DNA of 64,000 nt from a virus. Below, piece by piece: positions 27,164 to 35,440 of the stretch; within the stretch, counting starts at the first letter, position 1, and the number at the start of each line of letters is the position of its first letter. The notes under the pieces are model-generated. The model worked only from the letters and a program-made list of their open reading frames with translations, did no database searches and was not told the origin of the DNA. The stretch lies in IMG/VR virus record IMGVR_UViG_3300005253_000144, positions 38,175-102,174 of that record; one strand, 5' to 3'. Made by a program: the position numbers and the translations under genes.

Positions 27164-28528
27164 CTAATCCCCATCATCAGCGCGGCCGCCCATAATAACA
27201 ACTTGCGGTTCAAGGCGCGCTACCCGATTAATAAGCAGGCCGTCCTGAATCGCCATTACATCTTCAATATCCTTATATGCCTGGATAGTTTCATCTGAGG
27301 CAACGCCATGATAAGAAATATTTTTGTCCTCCATGTGCTTTTTGAATTTTGCCTCGGAGTGCACCCGCTTGGCCTCTGTGCGCGAGTAGGGGCGGCCAGC
27401 ACCATGCGCGGATGAAAATAATGCCTCAGGGTTTCCTAGCCCACTAGTTAAATAACTTGGAGACCCGCTCGTACCGGGGATAAGTCCAATCTCATCCTTA
27501 TGTGCTGGCGTTGCGCCCTTGCGATGGACATAATTGCCCTTTGAGTTCAACCAAGCATAATTATGTCGATTGAAAATCGTCCCGGCTACTTGCAATCCAC
27601 TAGAGCGCGCAAATGTAGAGTGGATAATTTCGTGATTGGCAAGAGCATATTCACCCATAAGCTGCATGACCTCCCAATATTCCTTTCCAGCATCTGTATC
27701 CATACGTAACCAACCATGACCCTTTGGAACATTTCTGGTAGTCGCCTTGGTTTCATTTTCGGCCATCTTTGTATAATGCGTTGCCAATTTATGACCCGTG
27801 CCGCGGCTTCCAGAATGTGTGAGCAGGCCTATCCTTTTTACCCTATGGTCCATAGGCAAAAATTCTGGAGACACATTCGCTCGGATTCGTGAAATAAGAA
27901 CTATATCAGCAAAGTGATTTCCGCCGCCGCTTGTGCCCAACTGCCGATTTGCCAAATATTGCAGGGCTTTAACTTTGGGGGCTATATTCCATTGCTCATT
28001 ATCCATGACAGCATGTTTACGCGGGGAATCAAATTCTAAACCCACACCAAACTTTGTAGATGCTTTTAAATAATCTGCGAACATCTTGCGCCTGCTAATA
28101 AACGCATTTGGTGGGATATCATACACACTTAACATGACCATGCAGGAAATGTCGAAACCGATGTAACCTGGTGAAATCGCGTTTTCCGTTTCGATGACCC
28201 CGCCAATGGGTAGGCCGTAACCTTTGTGGGCGTCCGGCATCAGCGCAGCTCTTATTGCGGGCGGTATCCGCGCGCACACTTCCATTTGGTCATAAGCGTT
28301 TTTAGGAATTAGGGCGCCGACTTTTCCAAATGTTGCGATTGGCACGGGCACATCTCGGTATGCTGGAGAAGTATCCTTTCCGAATTTCTTTTCGACCGCC
28401 TCTAATATCTGTTCCGGGTCATTGCCGAGTTCCCCGGTCAGGCTCGCGGCGTACTTGGCAATTTCAGGATACCCGCGCCGTGAATGATATTCCTTTAGCA
28501 ATTCATGCGTGTTGATTCTTTTTGTCAT
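27164..28528 (-). CDS. rtcB: RtcB RNA 3'-phosphate/5'-OH ligase
   Basis: MPDAHKGYGLPIG, GFDISC, GGGNHF, HSGSRG, HRKGAT, SSAHGAGR. Confidence 0.95.
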   Translation of the reverse strand: MTKRINTHELLKEYHSRRGYPEIAKYAASLTGELGNDPEQILEAVEKKFGKDTSPAYRDVPVPIATFGKVGALIPKNAYDQMEVCARIPPAIRAALMPDAHKGYGLPIGGVIETENAISPGYIGFDISCMVMLSVYDIPPNAFISRRKMFADYLKASTKFGVGLEFDSPRKHAVMDNEQWNIAPKVKALQYLANRQLGTSGGGNHFADIVLISRIRANVSPEFLPMDHRVKRIGLLTHSGSRGTGHKLATHYTKMAENETKATTRNVPKGHGWLRMDTDAGKEYWEVMQLMGEYALANHEIIHSTFARSSGLQVAGTIFNRHNYAWLNSKGNYVHRKGATPAHKDEIGLIPGTSGSPSYLTSGLGNPEALFSSAHGAGRPYSRTEAKRVHSEAKFKKHMEDKNISYHGVASDETIQAYKDIEDVMAIQDGLLINRVARLEPQVVIMGGRADDGD

Positions 28529-28547
28529 ATTTAATGAGCCTCCTATC

Positions 28548-28985
28548 TTATTCTGTTTTTATTGTTTTTGTACTCTTTTGAATACGATGAATCATATAAT
28601 GTGCTGATTTATAGGTAATGTCTAACATATGGCGCAATTGTTGTGCTGGAATTCCCCTCTTGCTTATATTCATCATATAAATTGCGATTAGCCATTTATT
28701 CATGGGAATATGAGTGTCTTCAAAAAGCGTGCCAATGGTGACTGTGAAGTTCTTGCGGCAAAAACCGCATCGATATACACCAGGCCGAATTCTATTTTTA
28801 TACTTCGTTCCTGGTTTTGATTCTAGTTTCCATGCGCCTCCGGCACTCCCGCATTTTGAGCAGACAATTCCATTAGGCCATCGGATATCCTCAATAATCT
28901 CGCGGGATTCATCTTCTGATAGCTTCGCAATTTTTATTAAGTCAAGATTAATCAGATAGTTCTGTATTTCTTCTATTAGTGTCAT
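28548..28985 (-). mobile_element. IS1595-family transposase N-terminal fragment (Zn ribbon + HTH, no DDE domain)
   Basis: IRWPNGIVCSKCG...YRCGFCRKNFTVTIGTLFEDTHIP..KW...ITYKSA; ORF ends before the catalytic domain. Confidence 0.8.
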
Positions 28986-29065
28986 TCAATCAAGAATCCT
29001 AATCCTGCGGTCATACCAAAGCCAATGAATAGGATTGAGAATCCTTAATTCCTCTGGCATCATCG

Positions 29066-30817
29066 CTAAATGTCTCCTATCGCATTCTCGTAAAATACAT
29101 CACTGGCGCGTATTTCTTTGGTCCCGGTTATCAACTCTAATATGCGCAATTTACTCAGTGCGTTATTGAACCCGCCGCTGGTTACCTGATAATCCGTCAT
29201 TATGGCTATCATTTCCTTGGATAGGCTCTTCGGATATTCATCACAAAGTACGGCTAATATTCTTCGCTGTGCGCGGCCCAATTTCCGTTTCCAATATTCT
29301 ATCAACTCCTGACCAACGGGTAAAGGCGCGTATTCTTCCCCCAAGGCTTCAAACCCGCTATCCGTGATTATAAACTTTCCGAGGTTATCCACCTCCATAA
29401 ATCCAGAGATTTTAAGATTGCTTAAAGCATTTGCAAACCCTCCGCTATTGATTGAATAACTGGTAAGAATAGCGATTTGTTTCTTGTTCTTTGTGTTTGG
29501 ATGATGCTGTGCAAGAGTTCTTAATATCCGATTCTGCGCACGGGGCAACTTATCACCATCAAAATTTGGGAGCGTATTGTTTGCTATTGGCTGCATACTA
29601 GGGCGAAGTGTGCTGGTCTCTACTTGTGACGCCCTTGCCATCTTCTCCATTACCACTTTGCCACTGGCCTCCTGCTTCTTCATCCCAAGGATTATCTGGT
29701 CAATAGTTTTGGGCAGGTTTACGAATTCCTTTGTAATGGTAGTCAACTTCGTAGATAACTCTTGCAACGCTTCATAGGTTTCTTCAGGAACAAACGGAAC
29801 TCGCACAGGAACTTTGGTTTCAATATTCTTAATTACGGTATTAGGCGTTGCTACTATTTTCTCCGATGCCTTCGCCTTCCGGCGTGCTTTAGCAATATCG
29901 CGTTTCAGTTCTGTGTTCTCGGTCTGTAACTGCACCAATAGGTCGGTTTCCCTTTGCGCCTCCTGGGGCAAATCCCCCATTTGTGAAACCAATGTTAATA
30001 TCGCCTTCGATGCTGGCGGAACTCTCATTTTGAATCGTTCACCTTGTTTGGGATGCGTGCTTTTAACTTTGTCAGAGCGGAACTCCACAACACCTGCCAT
30101 GGAAAGGGCTGCCCCAAATGTATAAAACATTCCAGGTTTCAAATTACGCAACTCCATCCGCTTGGTTTTGCCCATACCCAATAGGTCGCCTGCCCGCTTT
30201 TGGTCAATATCTAAGGCTGTGCGCCCGATAATGATATTGTTTGCTTCGGCCGCGGCGTCTTTATGTAACTTGCTTAATCGCTGCGTGGAAAGGATTCCAG
30301 CGTAGCCACGCTTACGCCCCTGCGACATCAGGGCGATAACCGCCTCCGAACTTTCCGCACTTCCTGCAGAGCGTTCTGGGCAGTAGACATGCGCTTCATC
30401 TAAGATTACCAAGATAGGATGCCAATATTTACGCGGCAAATTCATCAAGCTATCTAAGAACAGCTTCACATAAGTTCTACGGTCAGCTAGTTTCAAATCG
30501 TACAAATCGATAATCGCGCTTATCTCTTTCTCTGCCAATTTGCGCGCTAACAATTTTGCCGTCTTGATAGTGGTGGCCAATTCGCCATCATTGCCAATAA
30601 GAGCAATGGTAATCTCTTCCCTTAATGTTATAAACTCTCCCTCCGGGTCCAAAATAATGATTTGGACATCTGCCGCCGTTCTTTCCGCGATAAGACGTAG
30701 TAGCCAAGACTTTCCCCCGCCGCTGTTTGCTGACACCAGCATACGTGTGTCAATCAGTTTTGGGAGGTCAATTTTTAATTGCTTATCCTTTGCGACTTGC
30801 CCAATTACGAATTGCAT
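29066..30817 (-). CDS. HerA/FtsK-like (DUF87) P-loop ATPase with coiled coil and two C-terminal winged-helix repeats
   Basis: ANSGGGKS, ILDPEGE, ILDEAH, QGRKRG, STQR; duplicated RAQxRIL...SGGFxNALSxL. Confidence 0.85.
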   Translation of the reverse strand: MQFVIGQVAKDKQLKIDLPKLIDTRMLVSANSGGGKSWLLRLIAERTAADVQIIILDPEGEFITLREEITIALIGNDGELATTIKTAKLLARKLAEKEISAIIDLYDLKLADRRTYVKLFLDSLMNLPRKYWHPILVILDEAHVYCPERSAGSAESSEAVIALMSQGRKRGYAGILSTQRLSKLHKDAAAEANNIIIGRTALDIDQKRAGDLLGMGKTKRMELRNLKPGMFYTFGAALSMAGVVEFRSDKVKSTHPKQGERFKMRVPPASKAILTLVSQMGDLPQEAQRETDLLVQLQTENTELKRDIAKARRKAKASEKIVATPNTVIKNIETKVPVRVPFVPEETYEALQELSTKLTTITKEFVNLPKTIDQIILGMKKQEASGKVVMEKMARASQVETSTLRPSMQPIANNTLPNFDGDKLPRAQNRILRTLAQHHPNTKNKKQIAILTSYSINSGGFANALSNLKISGFMEVDNLGKFIITDSGFEALGEEYAPLPVGQELIEYWKRKLGRAQRRILAVLCDEYPKSLSKEMIAIMTDYQVTSGGFNNALSKLRILELITGTKEIRASDVFYENAIGDI

Positions 30818-31201
30818 AATATGCCTCTTTCATTTATTATAACAATTGTTAGTCCCTAAATTTTTCCTTCATGGCTTCCATAAAACCTGGTGGCCCATCA
30901 AAATAAAACTCTGCTTTTATAGCATATGCGTTTTGTAAATACTGTGCCATTTCTTTAATGTCGTGTATGGATGCAGTATGTAGGTCCAGCCGCTTGACAA
31001 TATCTTGCCCCTTCTGGTGCGAAAGGATGAAGACCACAGTATTGCCATGACTTTTTTGGCTATGCCAATCCACGCCCACTTCCATATTCTCACCCAGGAT
31101 TAATTGCAATGCCTTTTTAAGCTGCGCAAATTCTGTCCGTAGTGCTTCGTCCCTAGGGATGAAAAGGTTTTGGAACTTACGCCGGATAAACGCTTTAATT
31201 T

Positions 31202-32605
31202 TCATTGGTAAATCCGTCCCCAAGCTTCGTCCAGCTTTTTGGCACTCCATATATTGGGGACATATTCAATGAGCGGCGCATCATGGTAGCTGCTGATGGC
31301 GGCTGTGCCTTCAACCGCATCCAAGTACATTGAAAATCTACCCTCGCCTTCAACGACTAAAATATCTGGTATCTCGGCCGCGTCAAGCACATCCTTATAC
31401 TGCTCCACAAAAGCGGTATCTACTGAAAGCCTTCCAGCACTCAGCAATATTTTTGGGGTTATATCCTGTTCCTTTTCCTCAAAGTCTGCCCCACGCCCAA
31501 CGTTTTTGAATCCGAGTAGCGTGAGTGGCAAGCCATGTTCTTTACATTCTTCGATTACATAAGAAATCTTATCACTATAATGTGCGCCCACAACAAAATG
31601 GGCAACACCGCGCAGACCAAAGGCATCGTTAAGACCGGCTATATTTTTAACATCGTAGTGATTGTCAAGAGAGAGCGCATATGAACCTGCATATTCTCTT
31701 ACAGCTCGCAGGACTTCATGGCTCCATTTATCGGGCCGGATAAAGGTCGTGAAATTTGGGATGATGTCCAATTCTCTCGCCCTTTTAAGGATGGCCGGGA
31801 AATCTGGATGCAGCGTTGGCTCCCCGCCGCCAATGGCAATTTCAAACACGCCGCGCGCAGATAAGACTTCTAAATATGTTTCGATAGTTTCATAATCGGC
31901 ATGGTTGCCAGCAATGGTGCTGTCTTGATAACAGAAAGCACAATTGGCCGGGCAATAGTTGGTTATCTTCAGGTCAACCAATTCCGGAGTCGCCGAGCGT
32001 AGCAATTCATTCGGCTTTTTATCAAAGGATAACCTTAACTTCGCCCCGGTTACTTGATTAAACAATGTCCACCAATGGCCTGATTTCTTGGCAAGATAAT
32101 TACTGCCATCGACCTCTCCCAGCATTCTTAGTTCCCAATCGATGGTATCCCTGGTCTTATGCTCTCCCCATTCATCCGGGTCATCGCCATTATCATTGCC
32201 GCCCAATACCATAATATCTGGGCGTTGGAGATAATCGCGGAAGTCTTTAATAAATGCGGTTGAAAGGCGTTTTGTATATGCATCGCGCGGGAAGCCTAGG
32301 TGAGATTGATGGTCAACATATGCGCCTTCAATTTCTTCAACTTCCATTTTTTTCCCTACCAATTCAGATATGATAACTGCGGCAAGGTCTTCGCCCATTT
32401 CCTTTACGATGGCTTGATAGACTTGGGCTATGAAATAATCCATTTTGGGTCCTGGGTCAGAAAGCACAAAACATTCCCATCCAAATTCATATCCCATATG
32501 TCCAGGATTAGTGGGCAGGGCAGCTTTCCCCTTTGGCAATATAATGATTGAATGGCTGCTAGATGAATTTGTTGCTAAACCGAGTCTAATATTTGCAAGT
32601 TGCAT
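31202..32605 (-). CDS. Radical SAM protein with N-terminal TNSSSSHS domain
   Basis: CPANCAFC cluster motif, GGGEPTLHP; N-terminal RLGLATNSSSSHS. Confidence 0.88.
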   Translation of the reverse strand: MQLANIRLGLATNSSSSHSIIILPKGKAALPTNPGHMGYEFGWECFVLSDPGPKMDYFIAQVYQAIVKEMGEDLAAVIISELVGKKMEVEEIEGAYVDHQSHLGFPRDAYTKRLSTAFIKDFRDYLQRPDIMVLGGNDNGDDPDEWGEHKTRDTIDWELRMLGEVDGSNYLAKKSGHWWTLFNQVTGAKLRLSFDKKPNELLRSATPELVDLKITNYCPANCAFCYQDSTIAGNHADYETIETYLEVLSARGVFEIAIGGGEPTLHPDFPAILKRARELDIIPNFTTFIRPDKWSHEVLRAVREYAGSYALSLDNHYDVKNIAGLNDAFGLRGVAHFVVGAHYSDKISYVIEECKEHGLPLTLLGFKNVGRGADFEEKEQDITPKILLSAGRLSVDTAFVEQYKDVLDAAEIPDILVVEGEGRFSMYLDAVEGTAAISSYHDAPLIEYVPNIWSAKKLDEAWGRIYQ

Positions 32606-32609
32606 AGTT

Positions 32610-32936
32610 TCACCTCATTTGTAGGATTGTCCAGATTGCGATTAAATGGAATGCTTGGTCATCCATTTGTTGAGCATATAGCTTTTCCTCATCATTGCCA
32701 ATTAAACGACTCCACCAATAGCCTAGCCGGAAGCCATCGATAATTGCATGGCTAATCGCAATGAAAAGAATTTGTGCGAGAGAAAATCCCAAGACCACAA
32801 ATGGTAATGATGTAATCAAAACGTGTAGTATTAGGATATAAAATTCCTTCTGTTTTCGTTTCCTCAAATAGGCCGTATTAAATAGCCAGTCCCCAATTAT
32901 GTGTGCGATTAATGCCTTTGAAAACATTGCTTCCAT
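32610..32936 (-). CDS. DUF3307-like membrane protein
   Basis: AHIIGDW, H...SHAIID, DQAFH; start trimmed because the longer ORF runs through tRNA-Asn. Confidence 0.75.
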   Translation of the reverse strand: MEAMFSKALIAHIIGDWLFNTAYLRKRKQKEFYILILHVLITSLPFVVLGFSLAQILFIAISHAIIDGFRLGYWWSRLIGNDEEKLYAQQMDDQAFHLIAIWTILQMR

Positions 32937-32938
32937 AG

Positions 32939-33011
32939 CTGCCACGGAAGGATTTGAACCTTCAACCTCGCGATTAACAGTCGCACGCTCCACCAATTGA
33001 GCTACATGGCA
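32939..33011 (-). tRNA. tRNA-Asn (GUU)
   Basis: Full cloverleaf TGCCATG...CTGTTAA...GGTTCAAATCC...CGTGGCA-G; G73; CCA not encoded. Confidence 0.95.
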
Positions 33012-33012
33012 A

Positions 33013-33180
33013 TGGTGACAGACCGCGACCTCGATTACGGCCAGCACCTCACGAGACGGAGTACGCTACTTTTGAGACCTGTGCTGAATGGCCGCTTCCA
33101 ACACATGGTAGCAATTCCACTGGCGGCCGGGACAGTATAGGAATCTCACTTAAGCCTCACTGGTTTTCCGGCGGCCTGTC
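33013..33180 (-). ncRNA. 168-nt tRNA-like RNA ending in ACCA
   Basis: Terminal stem GACAGGCCGC/GCGGTCTGTC + ACCA; internal arms GGCCGC/GCGGCC and CAGCAC/GTGCTG; exactly fills the tRNA-Met to tRNA-Asn gap. Confidence 0.75.
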
Positions 33181-33182
33181 AA

Positions 33183-33258
33183 TAGCGGAGGCGGGAATCG
33201 AACCCGCGTAGGTCCAGGTTATGAGCCTGGCAAGCAAGCCAACATGCTCAACTCCGCG
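33183..33258 (-). tRNA. tRNA-Met (CAU), initiator-like
   Basis: Cloverleaf with CTCATAA loop, C1xU72 mismatch and A11-U24; anticodon stem CCAGG/CCTGG has only two of the three initiator G-C pairs. Confidence 0.9.
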
Positions 33259-33259
33259 A

Positions 33260-33330
33260 TGTTGAGAGGGCAAGCACATAGGGGTTATGTAAAAATAAAA
33301 ATACTATGTGCCCATTCGTTGGCCCTCTCA
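33260..33330 (-). ncRNA. Small rod-like RNA between tRNA-Pro and tRNA-Met (Y-RNA-like stem)
   Basis: TGAGAGGGC/GCCCTCTCA and GCACATAG/CTATGTGC helices, asymmetric bulge, U-rich apical loop. Confidence 0.55.
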
Positions 33331-33331
33331 G

Positions 33332-33405
33332 TCAGGATGGTAGGATTTGAACCTACGCCCTCCTGGTCCCAAACCAGGCGTTCCACCGGACTGAACTACA
33401 CCCTG
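33332..33405 (-). tRNA. tRNA-Pro (UGG)
   Basis: CAGGGTG...TTTGGGA...GGTTCAAATCC...CATCCTG-A cloverleaf; C1-G72, A73. Confidence 0.95.
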
Positions 33406-33725: not shown

Positions 33726-33872
33726 AGATACTCAGATGGTGGCGGCAGCCAGGCCTCGCACGGTTTCAACCTGGGTCACTTTCAACATTCGTCTGCCGGC
33801 TATCCTCCCGTGCTCTGGGAGTCTTGATTACTCGTAACGCTTTAGTCGCCTTCCGCCACCACTTGAATATCC
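33726..33872 (-). ncRNA. Structured RNA with tRNA-like 3' end (CCGCC-ACCA)
   Basis: Outer stem GGATATTCA/TGAGTATCT (two G-U pairs on minus strand), inner TGGTGGCGG/CCGCCACCA, CCAGG/CCTGG arm before the acceptor-like strand. Confidence 0.6.
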
Positions 33873-33878
33873 TTCTTA

Positions 33879-34105
33879 TTGGATGCTCACTATGGGCGAG
33901 GAAGGGCTGACACCTATCGCCTTCGCCCATCCTCTCATTCTCTCTGGGCGTTATCCCGCTCTAATCAGGAAAACTTACGTATGCTTTACCGATTGCAGTT
34001 CAAACCCCTGCAACTAGGTAAACAGCCTTGATAGGATTTCCGTTACTAAGGGGCCTCTGTCAGACTAGAGCAACACGCCACTATATGCCCATAGTGAGCA
34101 TCCAA
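33879..34105 (-). ncRNA. 227-nt structured RNA closed by a perfect 19-bp stem
   Basis: ttggatgctcactatgggc (33879-33897) / gcccatagtgagcatccaa (34087-34105); inner helices GCTCTAGTC/GATTAGAGC, TTTACC/GGTAAA, TTGCAG/CTGCAA. Confidence 0.7.
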
Positions 34106-34124: not shown

Positions 34125-34197
34125 ATTGAATATCCAGGAAAGCGGTGGGATGAAATGTTGGCCGCATCCCATCCCGCCGCCGTCTCGGACATTCAAT
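34125..34197 (-). ncRNA. Small structured RNA/hairpin
   Basis: ATTGAATGTCC/GGATATTCAAT 11-bp stem (G-U only on minus strand), inner TGGGATG/CATCCCA. Confidence 0.55.
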
Positions 34198-34201
34198 TTG
34201 T

Positions 34202-34256
34202 GAGGGGGAAGGCCAGCTAACAAAGATTGTAAGTCTAATGCTTAGCCTTCCCCCTC
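34202..34256. ncRNA. 12-bp GC-rich hairpin with structured loop
   Basis: gagggggaaggc/gccttccccctc perfect inverted repeat. Confidence 0.5.
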
Positions 34257-34294: not shown

Positions 34295-34456
34295 CGGGTA
34301 TTGTGATTAACGATTGCGCCAATTTCTATACCGATGCTCTATCGACTGAGCTACGGACCCCAATATAAACAAACCATTCTTGATTTGCTTATGGAGGGTC
34401 CAGTGGGACTCAAACCCACGACCTTCGGTTCTCATTGCTGTCGTTTATCACACCCG
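34295..34456 (-). ncRNA. Circularly permuted tRNA-like RNA (YrlA/Y-RNA-type architecture)
   Basis: tRNA 3' half with CCA (34429-34392) precedes a 31-nt hairpin linker and then the 5' half (34360-34330); acceptor GGGTCCG/TGGACCC; anticodon arm replaced by a long terminal duplex. Confidence 0.85.
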
Positions 34457-34519: not shown

Positions 34520-35275
34520 TTACTCCTTAATTTCTCGGGTCTCGATATAGGCAAACAGCTTTGCGGCCATGCCGATGCTATCAGGTTTTGTTTCGATGTC
34601 ATTGGCACGCTGCCGCGCCTTTTTGACTTCATATAACAAATTGTCAAGGCGCCCCAATCGGTCCCGCTTGTCCACAATGGTTATCATACCGGATTGGCTG
34701 ACGGTTTCCCATTCGCCAACTTTGGCATCCTCGTTGTAGGGTTGTACCTGCGCCGGATGTTCAAGCGTGGCCTCATACAAGACATGGGTTTTCATTTGTT
34801 TCTTCATTCGGTTGGTAATAACCGGGTCAGAAACATAGATACCCTTTTGCTCATCGAAATCCCATTTTTGACCGGGAGGAAGCGTGGGGATGGCTTCATA
34901 AACCCTGCGTAATTCTGCCAGCTTCCCTTCCAGATTCAGCAATGCTGTGGCTGGCAATTCTCCAAGCAGTGGCGTGCCATCAATTAATATCGTGTCCCTA
35001 GCTTCGGTATTGGCAATTTCTTTACCAACCGATACGTCAATCCAGGCACCGACTTGCTCAAAGACGCGCGCCAACTCTGCCTCTACCGTAGTAGCAAGTT
35101 CAGTGTGCTCTTCCGGGTAAGTATCCTCTCCCTCAACAATCAACTGATATTTGCGGAACTGCCCCAAGAAATGGGCTTGTCCCGCATCAAATAATCCCCG
35201 GACCTCATTGATTATTGCTGTCGCCTTACCTCGCAAATCCGGTTCAACCGCTAATAGTTCGTACAACTTTGTCAT
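34520..35275 (-). CDS. Helical 251-aa protein of unknown function embedded in the ncRNA operon
   Basis: AAGGAG RBS; MTKLYELLAVE start, LPATALLNLE, YEATLEHPAQV, VKKARQRAN motifs; I recognise the style as a widespread uncharacterised family but cannot confirm a name. Confidence 0.85.
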   Translation of the reverse strand: MTKLYELLAVEPDLRGKATAIINEVRGLFDAGQAHFLGQFRKYQLIVEGEDTYPEEHTELATTVEAELARVFEQVGAWIDVSVGKEIANTEARDTILIDGTPLLGELPATALLNLEGKLAELRRVYEAIPTLPPGQKWDFDEQKGIYVSDPVITNRMKKQMKTHVLYEATLEHPAQVQPYNEDAKVGEWETVSQSGMITIVDKRDRLGRLDNLLYEVKKARQRANDIETKPDSIGMAAKLFAYIETREIKE

Positions 35276-35295: not shown

Positions 35296-35400
35296 TTGGG
35301 TGCTCAACTGGTGGCGTGTCGGTTTCTCACCGACGGCAACGCGCTGTTGATATTCACCAATCCGCTATATGCTTTCCGCCGCCACCACCTCAATATCCAA
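35296..35400 (-). ncRNA. Leader RNA with T-arm-like hairpin and CGCC-ACCA end; related to 33726..33872
   Basis: TGGTGGCG/CGCCACCA stem; GTCGG-TGAGAAA-CCGAC 5-bp stem/7-nt loop; sits between the promoter and the ORF RBS. Confidence 0.6.
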
Positions 35401-35411
35401 AGTGAATGACA

Positions 35412-35440
35412 AATATATCACTTACGCTATATATAGTCAA
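35412..35440 (-). promoter_or_regulatory. sigma70-type promoter with TATAGC box heading the ncRNA/tRNA operon
   Basis: TTGACT-ATATATAGCGTAAGTGA (17 nt)-TATATT. Confidence 0.75.

What the first reader, a model, noticed from the sequence alone, without database searches (positions are those of the whole stretch)
33013..33180. 168-nt giant cloverleaf with a 10-bp acceptor-like stem and ACCA end
Seen: it starts 2 nt after tRNA-Met and ends 1 nt before tRNA-Asn. The terminal helix GACAGGCCGC/GCGGTCTGTC (one G-U, valid only on the minus strand) is followed by ACCA, and three long arms plus a short 3' hairpin (GGCC-GTAATCGA-GGTC) occupy the position of a T-arm. No anticodon loop or tmRNA-type G3-U70 is present. 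Inference: a stable, possibly aminoacylatable tRNA mimic that tRNA finders would miss.
Basis: partly seen in the sequence, partly recalled or inferred. Interest (0 to 1): 0.78.

Follow-up and report, generated by a model that had tools for sequence, protein, structure and literature searches.

The report
Orphan folded RNA inside phage tRNA operon
Between two tRNA genes of an uncultured 102-kb phage lies a conserved 168-base non-coding RNA gene with a tRNA-style paired end and ACCA tail; it looks like the unexplained "stable RNAs" long known in the tRNA clusters of phages T4 and T5, and nothing shows that it carries an amino acid.

Summary
On the minus strand, 33180..33013 sits 2 nt after tRNA-Met and 1 nt before tRNA-Asn. 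Its ends form a 10-bp helix (pair probability about 1). Single-stranded ACCA follows the helix, and a 4-bp hairpin abuts its 3' strand. A terminal helix this long arose in 51 of 20,000 shuffles.

It is a discrete, constrained unit:
- In a related metagenome contig (L085) the same sequence starts at the same base, but behind a different tRNA (Arg-UCU).
- The 54 nt visible there are 91% identical, against 67% at four-fold degenerate sites of the neighbouring gene (p = 4e-5).
- It matches no tRNA, tmRNA, YrlA or other Rfam family, and it has no credible ORF.

The inner arms are not settled. Two folds lie within 2.5 kcal/mol of each other, the overall z-score is only -1.5, and no covariation could be obtained.

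Best reading: a non-decoding RNA cut out of the tRNA operon by the tRNA-processing machinery. U-1, G+1:C and ACCA form an RNase P-type site. This is the kind of RNA seen in T4 RNAC/RNAD and in T5 RNAI and RNA2H, all of unknown function. Charging is unsupported.

This scan has noted similar phage tRNA-mimic arrays on other DNA. I class it as a new member of a known kind, of moderate interest.

The parts
33013..33180 (-). The 168-nt element (RNA positions 1-168 = window 33180 down to 33013)
   Evidence: Sequence. GC is 56.5% against 43.9% for the window. No Rfam, tRNA or tmRNA hit. No credible ORF.
33171..33180 (-). 5' strand of the terminal helix P1 (GACAGGCCGC); G33180 is the presumed mature 5' end, preceded by U-1 (33181)
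   Evidence: Pair probability 0.85-1.0. In L085 position 6 is A, which would turn the G.U pair into A-U if the unseen 3' strand there is unchanged.
33017..33026 (-). 3' strand of the terminal helix P1 (GCGGUCUGUC)
   Evidence: Not visible in any relative, because the contigs end before it.
33013..33016 (-). Genome-encoded single-stranded ACCA tail; one more U (33012) precedes tRNA-Asn
   Evidence: The three flanking tRNAs do not encode CCA (read).
33027..33042 (-). Short hairpin GGCC-GUAAUCGA-GGUC in the place of a T arm, stacking directly on P1
   Evidence: Pair probability 0.74-0.85. The loop lacks the T-loop consensus (read from sequence).
33043..33169 (-). Interior of the element: three arms of about 40 nt in one fold (RNA 12-51, 53-91, 96-138), or a different set of arms in the MFE fold
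   Evidence: Two folds within 2.5 kcal/mol. The few variants in L085 and L084 support neither.
33183..33258 (-). Upstream tRNA-Met(CAU), atypical: C1xU72 mismatch, large D loop, 34 bits
32938..33011 (-). Downstream tRNA-Asn(GUU); RNase P cleavage at its 5' end would define the 3' end of the element
   Evidence: 68 bits.
35412..35440 (-). Nearest sigma-70-type promoter upstream (TTGACT, 17 nt, TATATT, with TG); the scan found no terminator-like site on this strand between it and the 3' end of tRNA-Asn
   Evidence: a consensus scan only.

Best explanation
The element is a separate gene for a non-decoding structured RNA embedded in the phage's tRNA operon. It is of the same kind as the T4 RNAC/RNAD and T5 'stable RNAs'. 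Proposed mechanism: it is co-transcribed with tRNA-Pro, tRNA-Met and tRNA-Asn. Its 10-bp terminal helix, with U at -1, a G+1:C pair, an unpaired A and then CCA, forms an RNase P-type cleavage site. Host RNase P would therefore cut before G33180, which also leaves tRNA-Met with only a 2-nt trailer. RNase P cutting at tRNA-Asn +1 would leave ...ACCA-U, which is trimmed by one base. The result would be a closed, CCA-tailed RNA of about 168 nt that resists exonucleases. Shown: the anatomy, the discreteness of the unit, and sequence constraint on its first third. Inferred: transcription, the cleavage sites and stability. What the RNA does afterwards is unknown. My guess, at low confidence, is that it occupies or titrates a factor that recognises tRNA acceptor ends; the operon continues into an RtcB RNA ligase gene. 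I do not think it decodes or is charged.
For: Anatomy and fold; P1 pair probability is about 1, and a terminal helix of 10 bp or more arose in 51 of 20,000 shuffles. Discrete module: in L085 homology begins at element position 1, behind a different tRNA (Arg-UCU), again after a 2-nt spacer. Constraint: 49 of 54 nt are identical in L085, against 0.667 identity at 96 four-fold sites of the neighbouring DUF7873 gene; binomial p = 3.9e-5. GC is 56.5% against 43.9%. It is neither coding nor a known RNA family. Operon context: a promoter at 35440, and the scan found no terminator-like site on this strand before the end of tRNA-Asn. Precedent with the same architecture: T5 RNA2H (172 nt, 10-bp closing helix plus three arms), T5 RNAI (closing helix plus GCCA), T5 RNA3 (ends in ACCA), T4 rnaD (CACC followed by A) and T4 rnaC (acceptor-like stem plus T arm). 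All are annotated stable RNAs in tRNA clusters, several directly abutting tRNAs, and their roles are unknown (PMC3014915, PMC9697503). Closed terminal helices are also frequent in inter-tRNA gaps of other phages that carry DUF7873: about 15 of 58 gaps at p < 0.02.
Against: The whole-molecule folding energy is not exceptional (z = -1.49). The interior arms are ambiguous, and the few variants support neither fold. Only the first 54-57 nt are seen in a second lineage, so the 3' strand of P1, the ACCA and the hairpin have no comparative support and there is no covariation. The element is absent from the next relative, L086, whose neighbouring protein is 83% identical, and from about 160 other loci, by blastn, nhmmer and a covariance model. 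It is therefore young or restricted to one lineage. The hairpin lacks a T loop and the stack is 14 bp, so RNase P would have to rely on the helix and the RCCA motif alone. There are no expression data.
Confidence: 0.55

Rival explanations
1. It is only processing punctuation. On this reading the folded spacer has no role of its own: it keeps neighbouring pre-tRNAs from misfolding and supplies an RNase P site that trims the tRNA-Met trailer, and it is degraded after excision.
For: The same anatomical evidence as the best explanation. Many inter-tRNA gaps in related arrays are simple closed hairpins. The element is lineage-restricted.
Against: A 168-nt multi-arm RNA with 91% conservation of unpaired and paired positions alike is more than a spacer needs. 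Other tRNAs in these arrays are separated by 1-10 nt without such spacers.
Confidence: 0.15
2. It is a decayed remnant of two tRNA genes. Related arrays carry tRNA-Val(GAC) and tRNA-Glu(UUC) between tRNA-Met and tRNA-Asn, and the ACCA-U would be the old CCA end of the second tRNA.
For: L081 and L083 both have the order Met-Val(GAC)-Glu(UUC)-Asn. The two tRNAs fill about 155 nt, CCA is encoded there, and the bases 'CCAT' immediately precede tRNA-Asn, as here.
Against: Alignment of the element to either Val+Glu pair scores below the shuffled mean, while the two reference pairs align strongly to each other. There is no tRNA-model hit in the element at E <= 10. Two unrelated tRNAs would not give a 10-bp helix between the first 5' end and the second 3' end. 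Conservation is above neutral and GC is high.
Confidence: 0.1
3. It is a DNA-level palindromic or mobile insertion (MITE-like) with 10-11 bp terminal inverted repeats, and the 'helix' is a by-product.
For: Closed modules come and go between close relatives. The 227-nt unit and the 88-aa ORF are absent in L085, and a 145-nt unit plus tRNA-Arg is present only in L085. The L085 5' end is the exact reverse complement of the window's 3' strand.
Against: There is a single copy in the 102-kb genome and none in about 2.5 Mb of related loci. There is no target-site duplication (read). The G.U pair works only in RNA of the transcribed strand. The ends abut the tRNAs to the base, and the interior is conserved.
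Confidence: 0.07
4. One reading: a tRNA mimic that is aminoacylated on its ACCA end.
For: There is an acceptor-like helix with an unpaired A plus CCA, and a stacked hairpin. Minihelices can be charged by some synthetases (established knowledge, not tested here).
Against: There is no G3.U70, no anticodon, no D arm, no T loop, and the stack is 14 bp. Nothing in the data bears on charging.
Confidence: 0.05

Closest known systems
Phage T5 stable RNAs of the tRNA region (RNA2H, RNAI, RNAIII, RNAIV, RNA1, RNA2, RNA3; GenBank AY543070, annotated 'stable RNA with unknown functions' or 'tRNA-like stable RNA')
   Same: They lie inside a phage tRNA gene cluster, several of them abutting tRNAs. They are closed by a terminal helix with multi-arm interiors: RNA2H is 172 nt with a 10-bp closing helix and three arms, RNAI ends in GCCA after its closing helix, and RNA3 ends in ACCA. 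Their function is unknown.
   Different: There is no sequence similarity (z from -0.95 to 2.7). RNA1 and RNA2 keep a canonical T arm, which this element lacks. The T5 RNAs are annotated as stable RNAs in that record; this one is only predicted.
Phage T4 RNAC (species 1) and RNAD (species 2), genes rnaC and rnaD
   Same: [quoted passage not shown] Their biological roles are unknown (PMC3014915, PMC9697503).
   Different: There is no sequence similarity. rnaC has a canonical T arm (CCGGG-UUCGAAU-CCCGG). They are 119-139 nt long, against 168 nt here.
YrlA / bacterial Y RNAs (Rfam RF02553; PMC4201824)
   Same: They are non-decoding RNAs with tRNA-like features that can be cut by RNase P and receive CCA (M. 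smegmatis YrlA), and they are encoded near RtcB in some bacteria. A YrlA-like module lies 1.2 kb upstream in this same operon.
   Different: This element gives no YrlA hit at E <= 10 and has no T or D arm. No Ro60/TROVE gene was found in the 102-kb record.
Canonical tRNA, and tRNAs with unusual cloverleaves (8/4 or 9/3 acceptor/T branches; PMC5389517)
   Same: It has a paired 5'/3' end with an unpaired base plus CCA, and a hairpin stacked on the 3' strand.
   Different: There is no anticodon arm and no D arm. The branch is 10/4 = 14 bp, not 12. It is 168 nt long. ARAGORN and RF00005 do not find it.

Membership tests
tRNA (RF00005) | Cloverleaf with D, anticodon and T arms that scores above 29 bits | tested here: not met
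   No hit in 33013-33180, even at E <= 10. ARAGORN, with and without intron mode, finds only the three flanking tRNAs.
tmRNA (RF00023 and permuted forms) | tRNA-Ala-like domain with G3.U70 and a T arm, plus a tag reading frame | tested here: not met
   Position 3:70 is C-G. The only tmRNA-model fragments lie in the T arm of tRNA-Met. ARAGORN finds no tmRNA.
YrlA / Y RNA (RF02553) | tRNA-like domain with conserved T and D arms | tested here: not met
   No YrlA hit on the element at E <= 10. The partial YrlA hit (33 bits) lies at 34332-34427, not here.
YrlA / Y RNA (RF02553) | Encoded next to a Ro60/Rsr (TROVE) gene | tested here: not met
   PF05731 finds nothing in the 102-kb record at E <= 1, while the control genomes are found. 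The record is about 91% complete.
Phage tRNA-cluster stable RNAs (T4 RNAC/RNAD, T5 RNAI/RNA2H and others; a descriptive class, not a homology family) | Non-tRNA RNA gene inside a phage tRNA cluster, lying within a few nt of a tRNA gene | tested here: met
   2 nt after tRNA-Met and 1 nt before tRNA-Asn. Compare T4 and T5.
Phage tRNA-cluster stable RNAs | Ends paired in a closing helix, often followed by an NCCA-like tail | tested here: met
   10-bp P1 plus ACCA. T5 RNAI has GCCA, T5 RNA3 has ACCA, and T5 RNA2H has a 10-bp closing helix.
Phage tRNA-cluster stable RNAs | Accumulates as a discrete stable RNA in infected cells | not testable with these tools
Phage tRNA-cluster stable RNAs | Sequence homology to a T4 or T5 member | tested here: not met
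   Local alignment scores do not exceed shuffles in any meaningful way.
Bacterial RNase P substrate | Cleavage-site determinants: U at -1, G+1 paired with C+72, and an unpaired RCCA at the 3' end | tested here: met
   U33181; G33180:C33017; A-C-C-A at 33016-33013. This is a sequence reading only; cleavage itself was not tested.
Bacterial RNase P substrate | 12-bp acceptor/T-stem stack capped by a T loop | tested here: not met
   The stack would be 10 + 4 = 14 bp, and the loop GUAAUCGA (8 nt) lacks the UUCRANY pattern.

The most novel reading that the evidence does not exclude
The element is one of several CCA-tailed, closed RNAs in this operon; the A and B RNAs, the YrlA-like module and this element all encode CCA directly after a helix. 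Together with DUF7873 and RtcB they could form a phage system that mimics tRNA acceptor ends. Such a system might decoy, or be a preferred substrate of, host enzymes that attack or process tRNA 3' ends or acceptor stems. It would be a trans-acting anti-defence or tRNA-homeostasis RNA rather than a by-product, and could possibly even be charged.
Probability: 0.12. Interest if true: 0.7.

Novelty: new member of a known kind. Interest (0 to 1): 0.36.

Why it matters
Small stable RNAs in phage tRNA clusters have been known since the T4 and T5 era, and their roles are still listed as unknown (PMC3014915, PMC9697503). This element shows the same design in an unrelated, uncultured phage: a closing helix, an NCCA tail and a position abutting tRNAs. 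It also shows measurable purifying selection, and it sits in an operon that runs into an RtcB RNA ligase gene. That adds a data point to the view that such RNAs form a widespread functional class that tRNA finders and Rfam miss. On its own it does not reveal the function, and the more exciting claim of aminoacylation has no support.

Tried and rejected
**Known RNA families**
- Rfam at gathering threshold and at E <= 10 gave nothing on the element.
- ARAGORN, with and without intron mode, gave nothing.

**Decayed Val+Glu tRNAs**
- There is no similarity to the two tRNAs that occupy this slot in L081 and L083.

**Paralogues and T4/T5 similarity**
- There are no paralogues in the genome.
- There is no similarity to the neighbouring A and B RNAs or to the T4 and T5 RNAs.

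**Search for homologues**
- Three neighbouring proteins gave nothing as single queries in viral contigs.
- The DUF7873 profile gave 80 viral and 80 metagenome loci.
- P0002 gave nothing in genome contigs, and nothing close among isolated phages.
- Patterns anchored on the tRNAs or on the element found only L083 or nothing.
- blastn, nhmmer and a single-sequence covariance model (R1) over about 1.35 Mb found only L084 (first 30 nt) and L085 (first 54-57 nt).
- A weak model hit in L113 (16 bits, E about 0.05) overlaps ORFs, has z = -0.76 and lies in a locus with no tRNA; I rejected it as chance.

**Pair counts**
- Counts on the partial alignment were uninformative for both candidate folds.

**Archaeal-style multi-intron or permuted tRNA spliced by RtcB**
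- I considered this and set it aside. The promoter, the C1-mismatch initiator-like tRNA and the bacterial hosts of phages that carry DUF7873 point to a bacteriophage, and bacteria lack the splicing endonuclease (established knowledge).

**DUF7873 fold**
- The model is confident (pLDDT 84), but only generic helical matches came up in the PDB.

Full report
**What is there**

The window is part of a 102-kb IMG/VR virus record. On the minus strand a run of genes and RNAs reads as follows:
- DUF5662 and a sigma-70-type promoter (35440..35412).
- DUF7873 (35275..34520).
- About 800 nt of highly structured non-coding sequence, then an 88-aa ORF.
- tRNA-Pro (33405..33331), a 70-nt hairpin, and tRNA-Met (33258..33183).
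- The 168-nt element (33180..33013) and tRNA-Asn (33011..32938).
- Without a gap: DUF3307, a radical-SAM protein, a HerA-like ATPase, a zinc-ribbon protein, RtcB and a DNA methylase.

A 10-bp helix joins its first and last paired bases, with one G.U pair that works only on the minus strand. ACCA follows the helix. A 4-bp hairpin with an 8-nt loop abuts the 3' strand of the helix. Two U separate the element from tRNA-Met, and one U separates it from tRNA-Asn.

**Is it more than chance?**

The terminal helix has a pair probability of 0.85-1.0 and the hairpin 0.74-0.85. A terminal helix of 10 bp or more, allowing small offsets at both ends, arose in 51 of 20,000 shuffles of the spacer. The element has 56.5% GC in a 43.9% GC window.

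The molecule as a whole is not unusually stable (z = -1.49). The interior has at least two competing folds, the MFE at -60.6 kcal/mol and a tidy five-way junction at -58.1 kcal/mol. Only the ends are firmly established.

**What it is not**

- No Rfam family matches, even at E <= 10, and ARAGORN finds nothing there.
- There is no credible ORF.
- It is not a detectable remnant of tRNAs. Two related phage arrays (L081, L083) have tRNA-Val(GAC) and tRNA-Glu(UUC) in exactly this slot between tRNA-Met and tRNA-Asn. The element aligns to those pairs no better than shuffled sequence does. Two unrelated tRNAs would also not explain a 10-bp helix between the outermost ends.
- It has no second copy in the genome.

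**Relatives**

Homologues were hard to find. The DUF7873 profile recovered 160 loci, and three of them are close.
- **L084** is 99.8% identical, but its contig ends 30 nt into the element.
- **L085** has a neighbouring protein that is 90% identical, and its contig ends 54-57 nt into the element.
- **L086** has a neighbouring protein that is 83% identical and lacks the tRNAs and the element altogether.

L085 is informative in two ways.
- The element there follows a different tRNA (Arg-UCU), again after a 2-nt spacer, and similarity begins at element position 1. The 5' boundary is therefore a real module boundary.
- 49 of the 54 visible nt are identical, while four-fold degenerate sites of the neighbouring gene are only 66.7% identical (n = 96). 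The binomial p is 3.9e-5. At least the first third is under purifying selection.

The one change in the helix strand (G6 to A) would turn the G.U pair into A-U, but the partner strand is not visible in L085. The other variants favour neither interior fold. A covariance model of the element found nothing credible in about 1.35 Mb of related loci.

**How it most likely works**

The three tRNAs do not encode CCA, but the element does. Its 5' end shows the textbook determinants of a bacterial RNase P site (established knowledge; read):
- U at -1;
- G+1 paired with C;
- an unpaired A followed by CCA.

The likeliest course of events is:
1. Co-transcription with the tRNAs.
2. An RNase P cut before G33180, which also shortens the tRNA-Met trailer to 2 nt.
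3. An RNase P cut at tRNA-Asn +1.
4. Removal of one U.

The product would be a closed, CCA-tailed RNA. These steps are inferred, not shown. The stack of helix plus hairpin is 14 bp rather than 12, and the loop is not a T loop, so the mimicry is limited to the acceptor end.

**Comparison with what is known**

The design is not new.

T4 encodes RNAC and RNAD in its tRNA cluster. rnaD starts 1 nt after tRNA-Arg and rnaC follows it 6 nt later. rnaD ends in CACC followed by A, and rnaC has an acceptor-like stem with a true T arm.

T5 encodes at least seven 'stable RNAs with unknown functions' among its tRNAs. When folded, they show the same plan:
- RNA2H is 172 nt with a 10-bp closing helix and three arms.
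- RNAI is a closed RNA that ends in GCCA.
- RNA3 ends in ACCA.

Reviews and a recent omics paper still list the roles of the T4 RNAs as unknown (PMC3014915, PMC9697503). There is no sequence similarity to any of these RNAs, so the resemblance is one of kind, not of family.

In other phages that carry DUF7873, about a quarter of the longer inter-tRNA gaps are also closed by a significant terminal helix. Some are multi-arm units of 130-170 nt, and none is in Rfam. Earlier notes of this scan describe comparable arrays of CCA-ended tRNA mimics in other phage genomes. I used them only as leads. One of them pointed me to the T5 record, which I then checked myself.

**Context worth recording**

The stretch upstream is dense with other structured RNAs.
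- A YrlA-like permuted tRNA module lies behind DUF7873. It is conserved in L085 and L086, and odd tRNA-like calls recur 250-400 nt behind DUF7873 in many loci.
- An RNA that I call 'B' (33862..33745) has a 105-nt core that is 100% identical in L085. Its closing helix carries a compensatory G-C to A-U change.
- There is a 227-nt RNA with a perfect 19-bp closing helix (z = -5.95). It is absent from L085.

Several of these RNAs also place CCA directly after a helix. The element may therefore be one part of a larger RNA-based system together with DUF7873 and RtcB. I could not test that idea.

**Verdict**

It is a new member of a known but functionally unsolved kind, and its interest is moderate.

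Noticed in passing
window 34332-34427 (-), and loci such as L007 7069-7141, L021 6998-7069, L039 6993-7067, L045 7150-7224: A permuted tRNA-like module lies about 100 nt behind DUF7873, in the order T arm, acceptor 3' strand, CCA, loop, acceptor 5' strand, D arm. It gives a partial YrlA hit (RF02553, 33 bits, E 8e-5). ARAGORN calls odd 'tRNAs' 250-400 nt behind DUF7873 in many other loci. The region is 94% conserved in L085 and 80% in L086. No Ro60/TROVE gene is present in the genome.
   Followed up: partly
window 33745-33862 (-): The 'B' RNA is about 118 nt long and has a closing helix GGUGGCGG/CCGCCACC followed by A. Its 105-nt interior is 100% identical in L085, although synonymous sites are only 67% identical. 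The closing helix carries a compensatory G-C to A-U change. There is no Rfam hit.
   Followed up: partly
window 33880-34105 (-): A 227-nt RNA is closed by a perfect 19-bp helix (z = -5.95). It is absent from L085. Its 5' end repeats the leader of the B RNA as seen in L085 (TGGATGCTCA), so it looks like an insertion with a duplicated target. The A RNA (35310-35393), the B RNA and this unit share TTGGAT...ATCCAA-like termini.
   Followed up: partly
window 34125-34256 (-): Two very stable adjacent hairpins (combined z = -8.96). The second is 94% conserved in L085.
   Followed up: no
window 33262-33331 (-): A 70-nt hairpin between tRNA-Pro and tRNA-Met (z = -5.5). In L085 the interior has a 17-nt deletion, but the closing helix GAGAGGGC/GCCCUCUC is kept.
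   Followed up: partly
window 33183-33258 (-); L084 3619-3697; L085 1791-1873: The tRNA-Met is atypical: it has a C1xU72 mismatch, an oversized D loop, and scores only 34 bits. L084 has an extra base and mismatches in the anticodon stem. L085 has a tandem duplication in the D region. It may be a specialised or decaying tRNA.
   Followed up: no
L083 6134-6263 (-), L090 3057-3191 (+), L011 7353-7521 (+), L085 1874-2018 (+): Other phage tRNA arrays hold multi-arm units of 130-170 nt between tRNAs. The first three are closed by 10-11 bp terminal helices that span the gap; in L085 an 11-bp helix closes only the 3' two-thirds of the gap. None has a CCA tail and none is in Rfam. About 15 of 58 longer inter-tRNA gaps have a terminal helix at p < 0.02.
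   Followed up: partly
L081 10529-10853 (+); L083 3635-3940 (-): Two phages that each carry about 36 tRNAs share the order Met(CAU)-Val(GAC)-Glu(UUC)-Asn(GUU). The window has the 168-nt element in the Val+Glu slot. L081 also has a 142-nt non-tRNA unit where L083 has tRNA-Leu(CAA).
   Followed up: partly
window 34520-35275 (-): DUF7873 (251 aa) gives a confident AlphaFold model (pLDDT 84): long helices plus a beta sheet. It has no convincing match by sequence or by fold in the PDB. The family is widespread in phages of Rhizobium, Vibrio, Gordonia, Klebsiella and others.
   Followed up: partly
window 27164-32936 (-): The DUF3307 ORF starts 2 nt after tRNA-Asn. It is followed by a radical-SAM protein, a HerA-like ATPase, a zinc-ribbon protein and RtcB. 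The tRNA/RNA array therefore sits in the leader of an operon that includes an RNA ligase.
   Followed up: no
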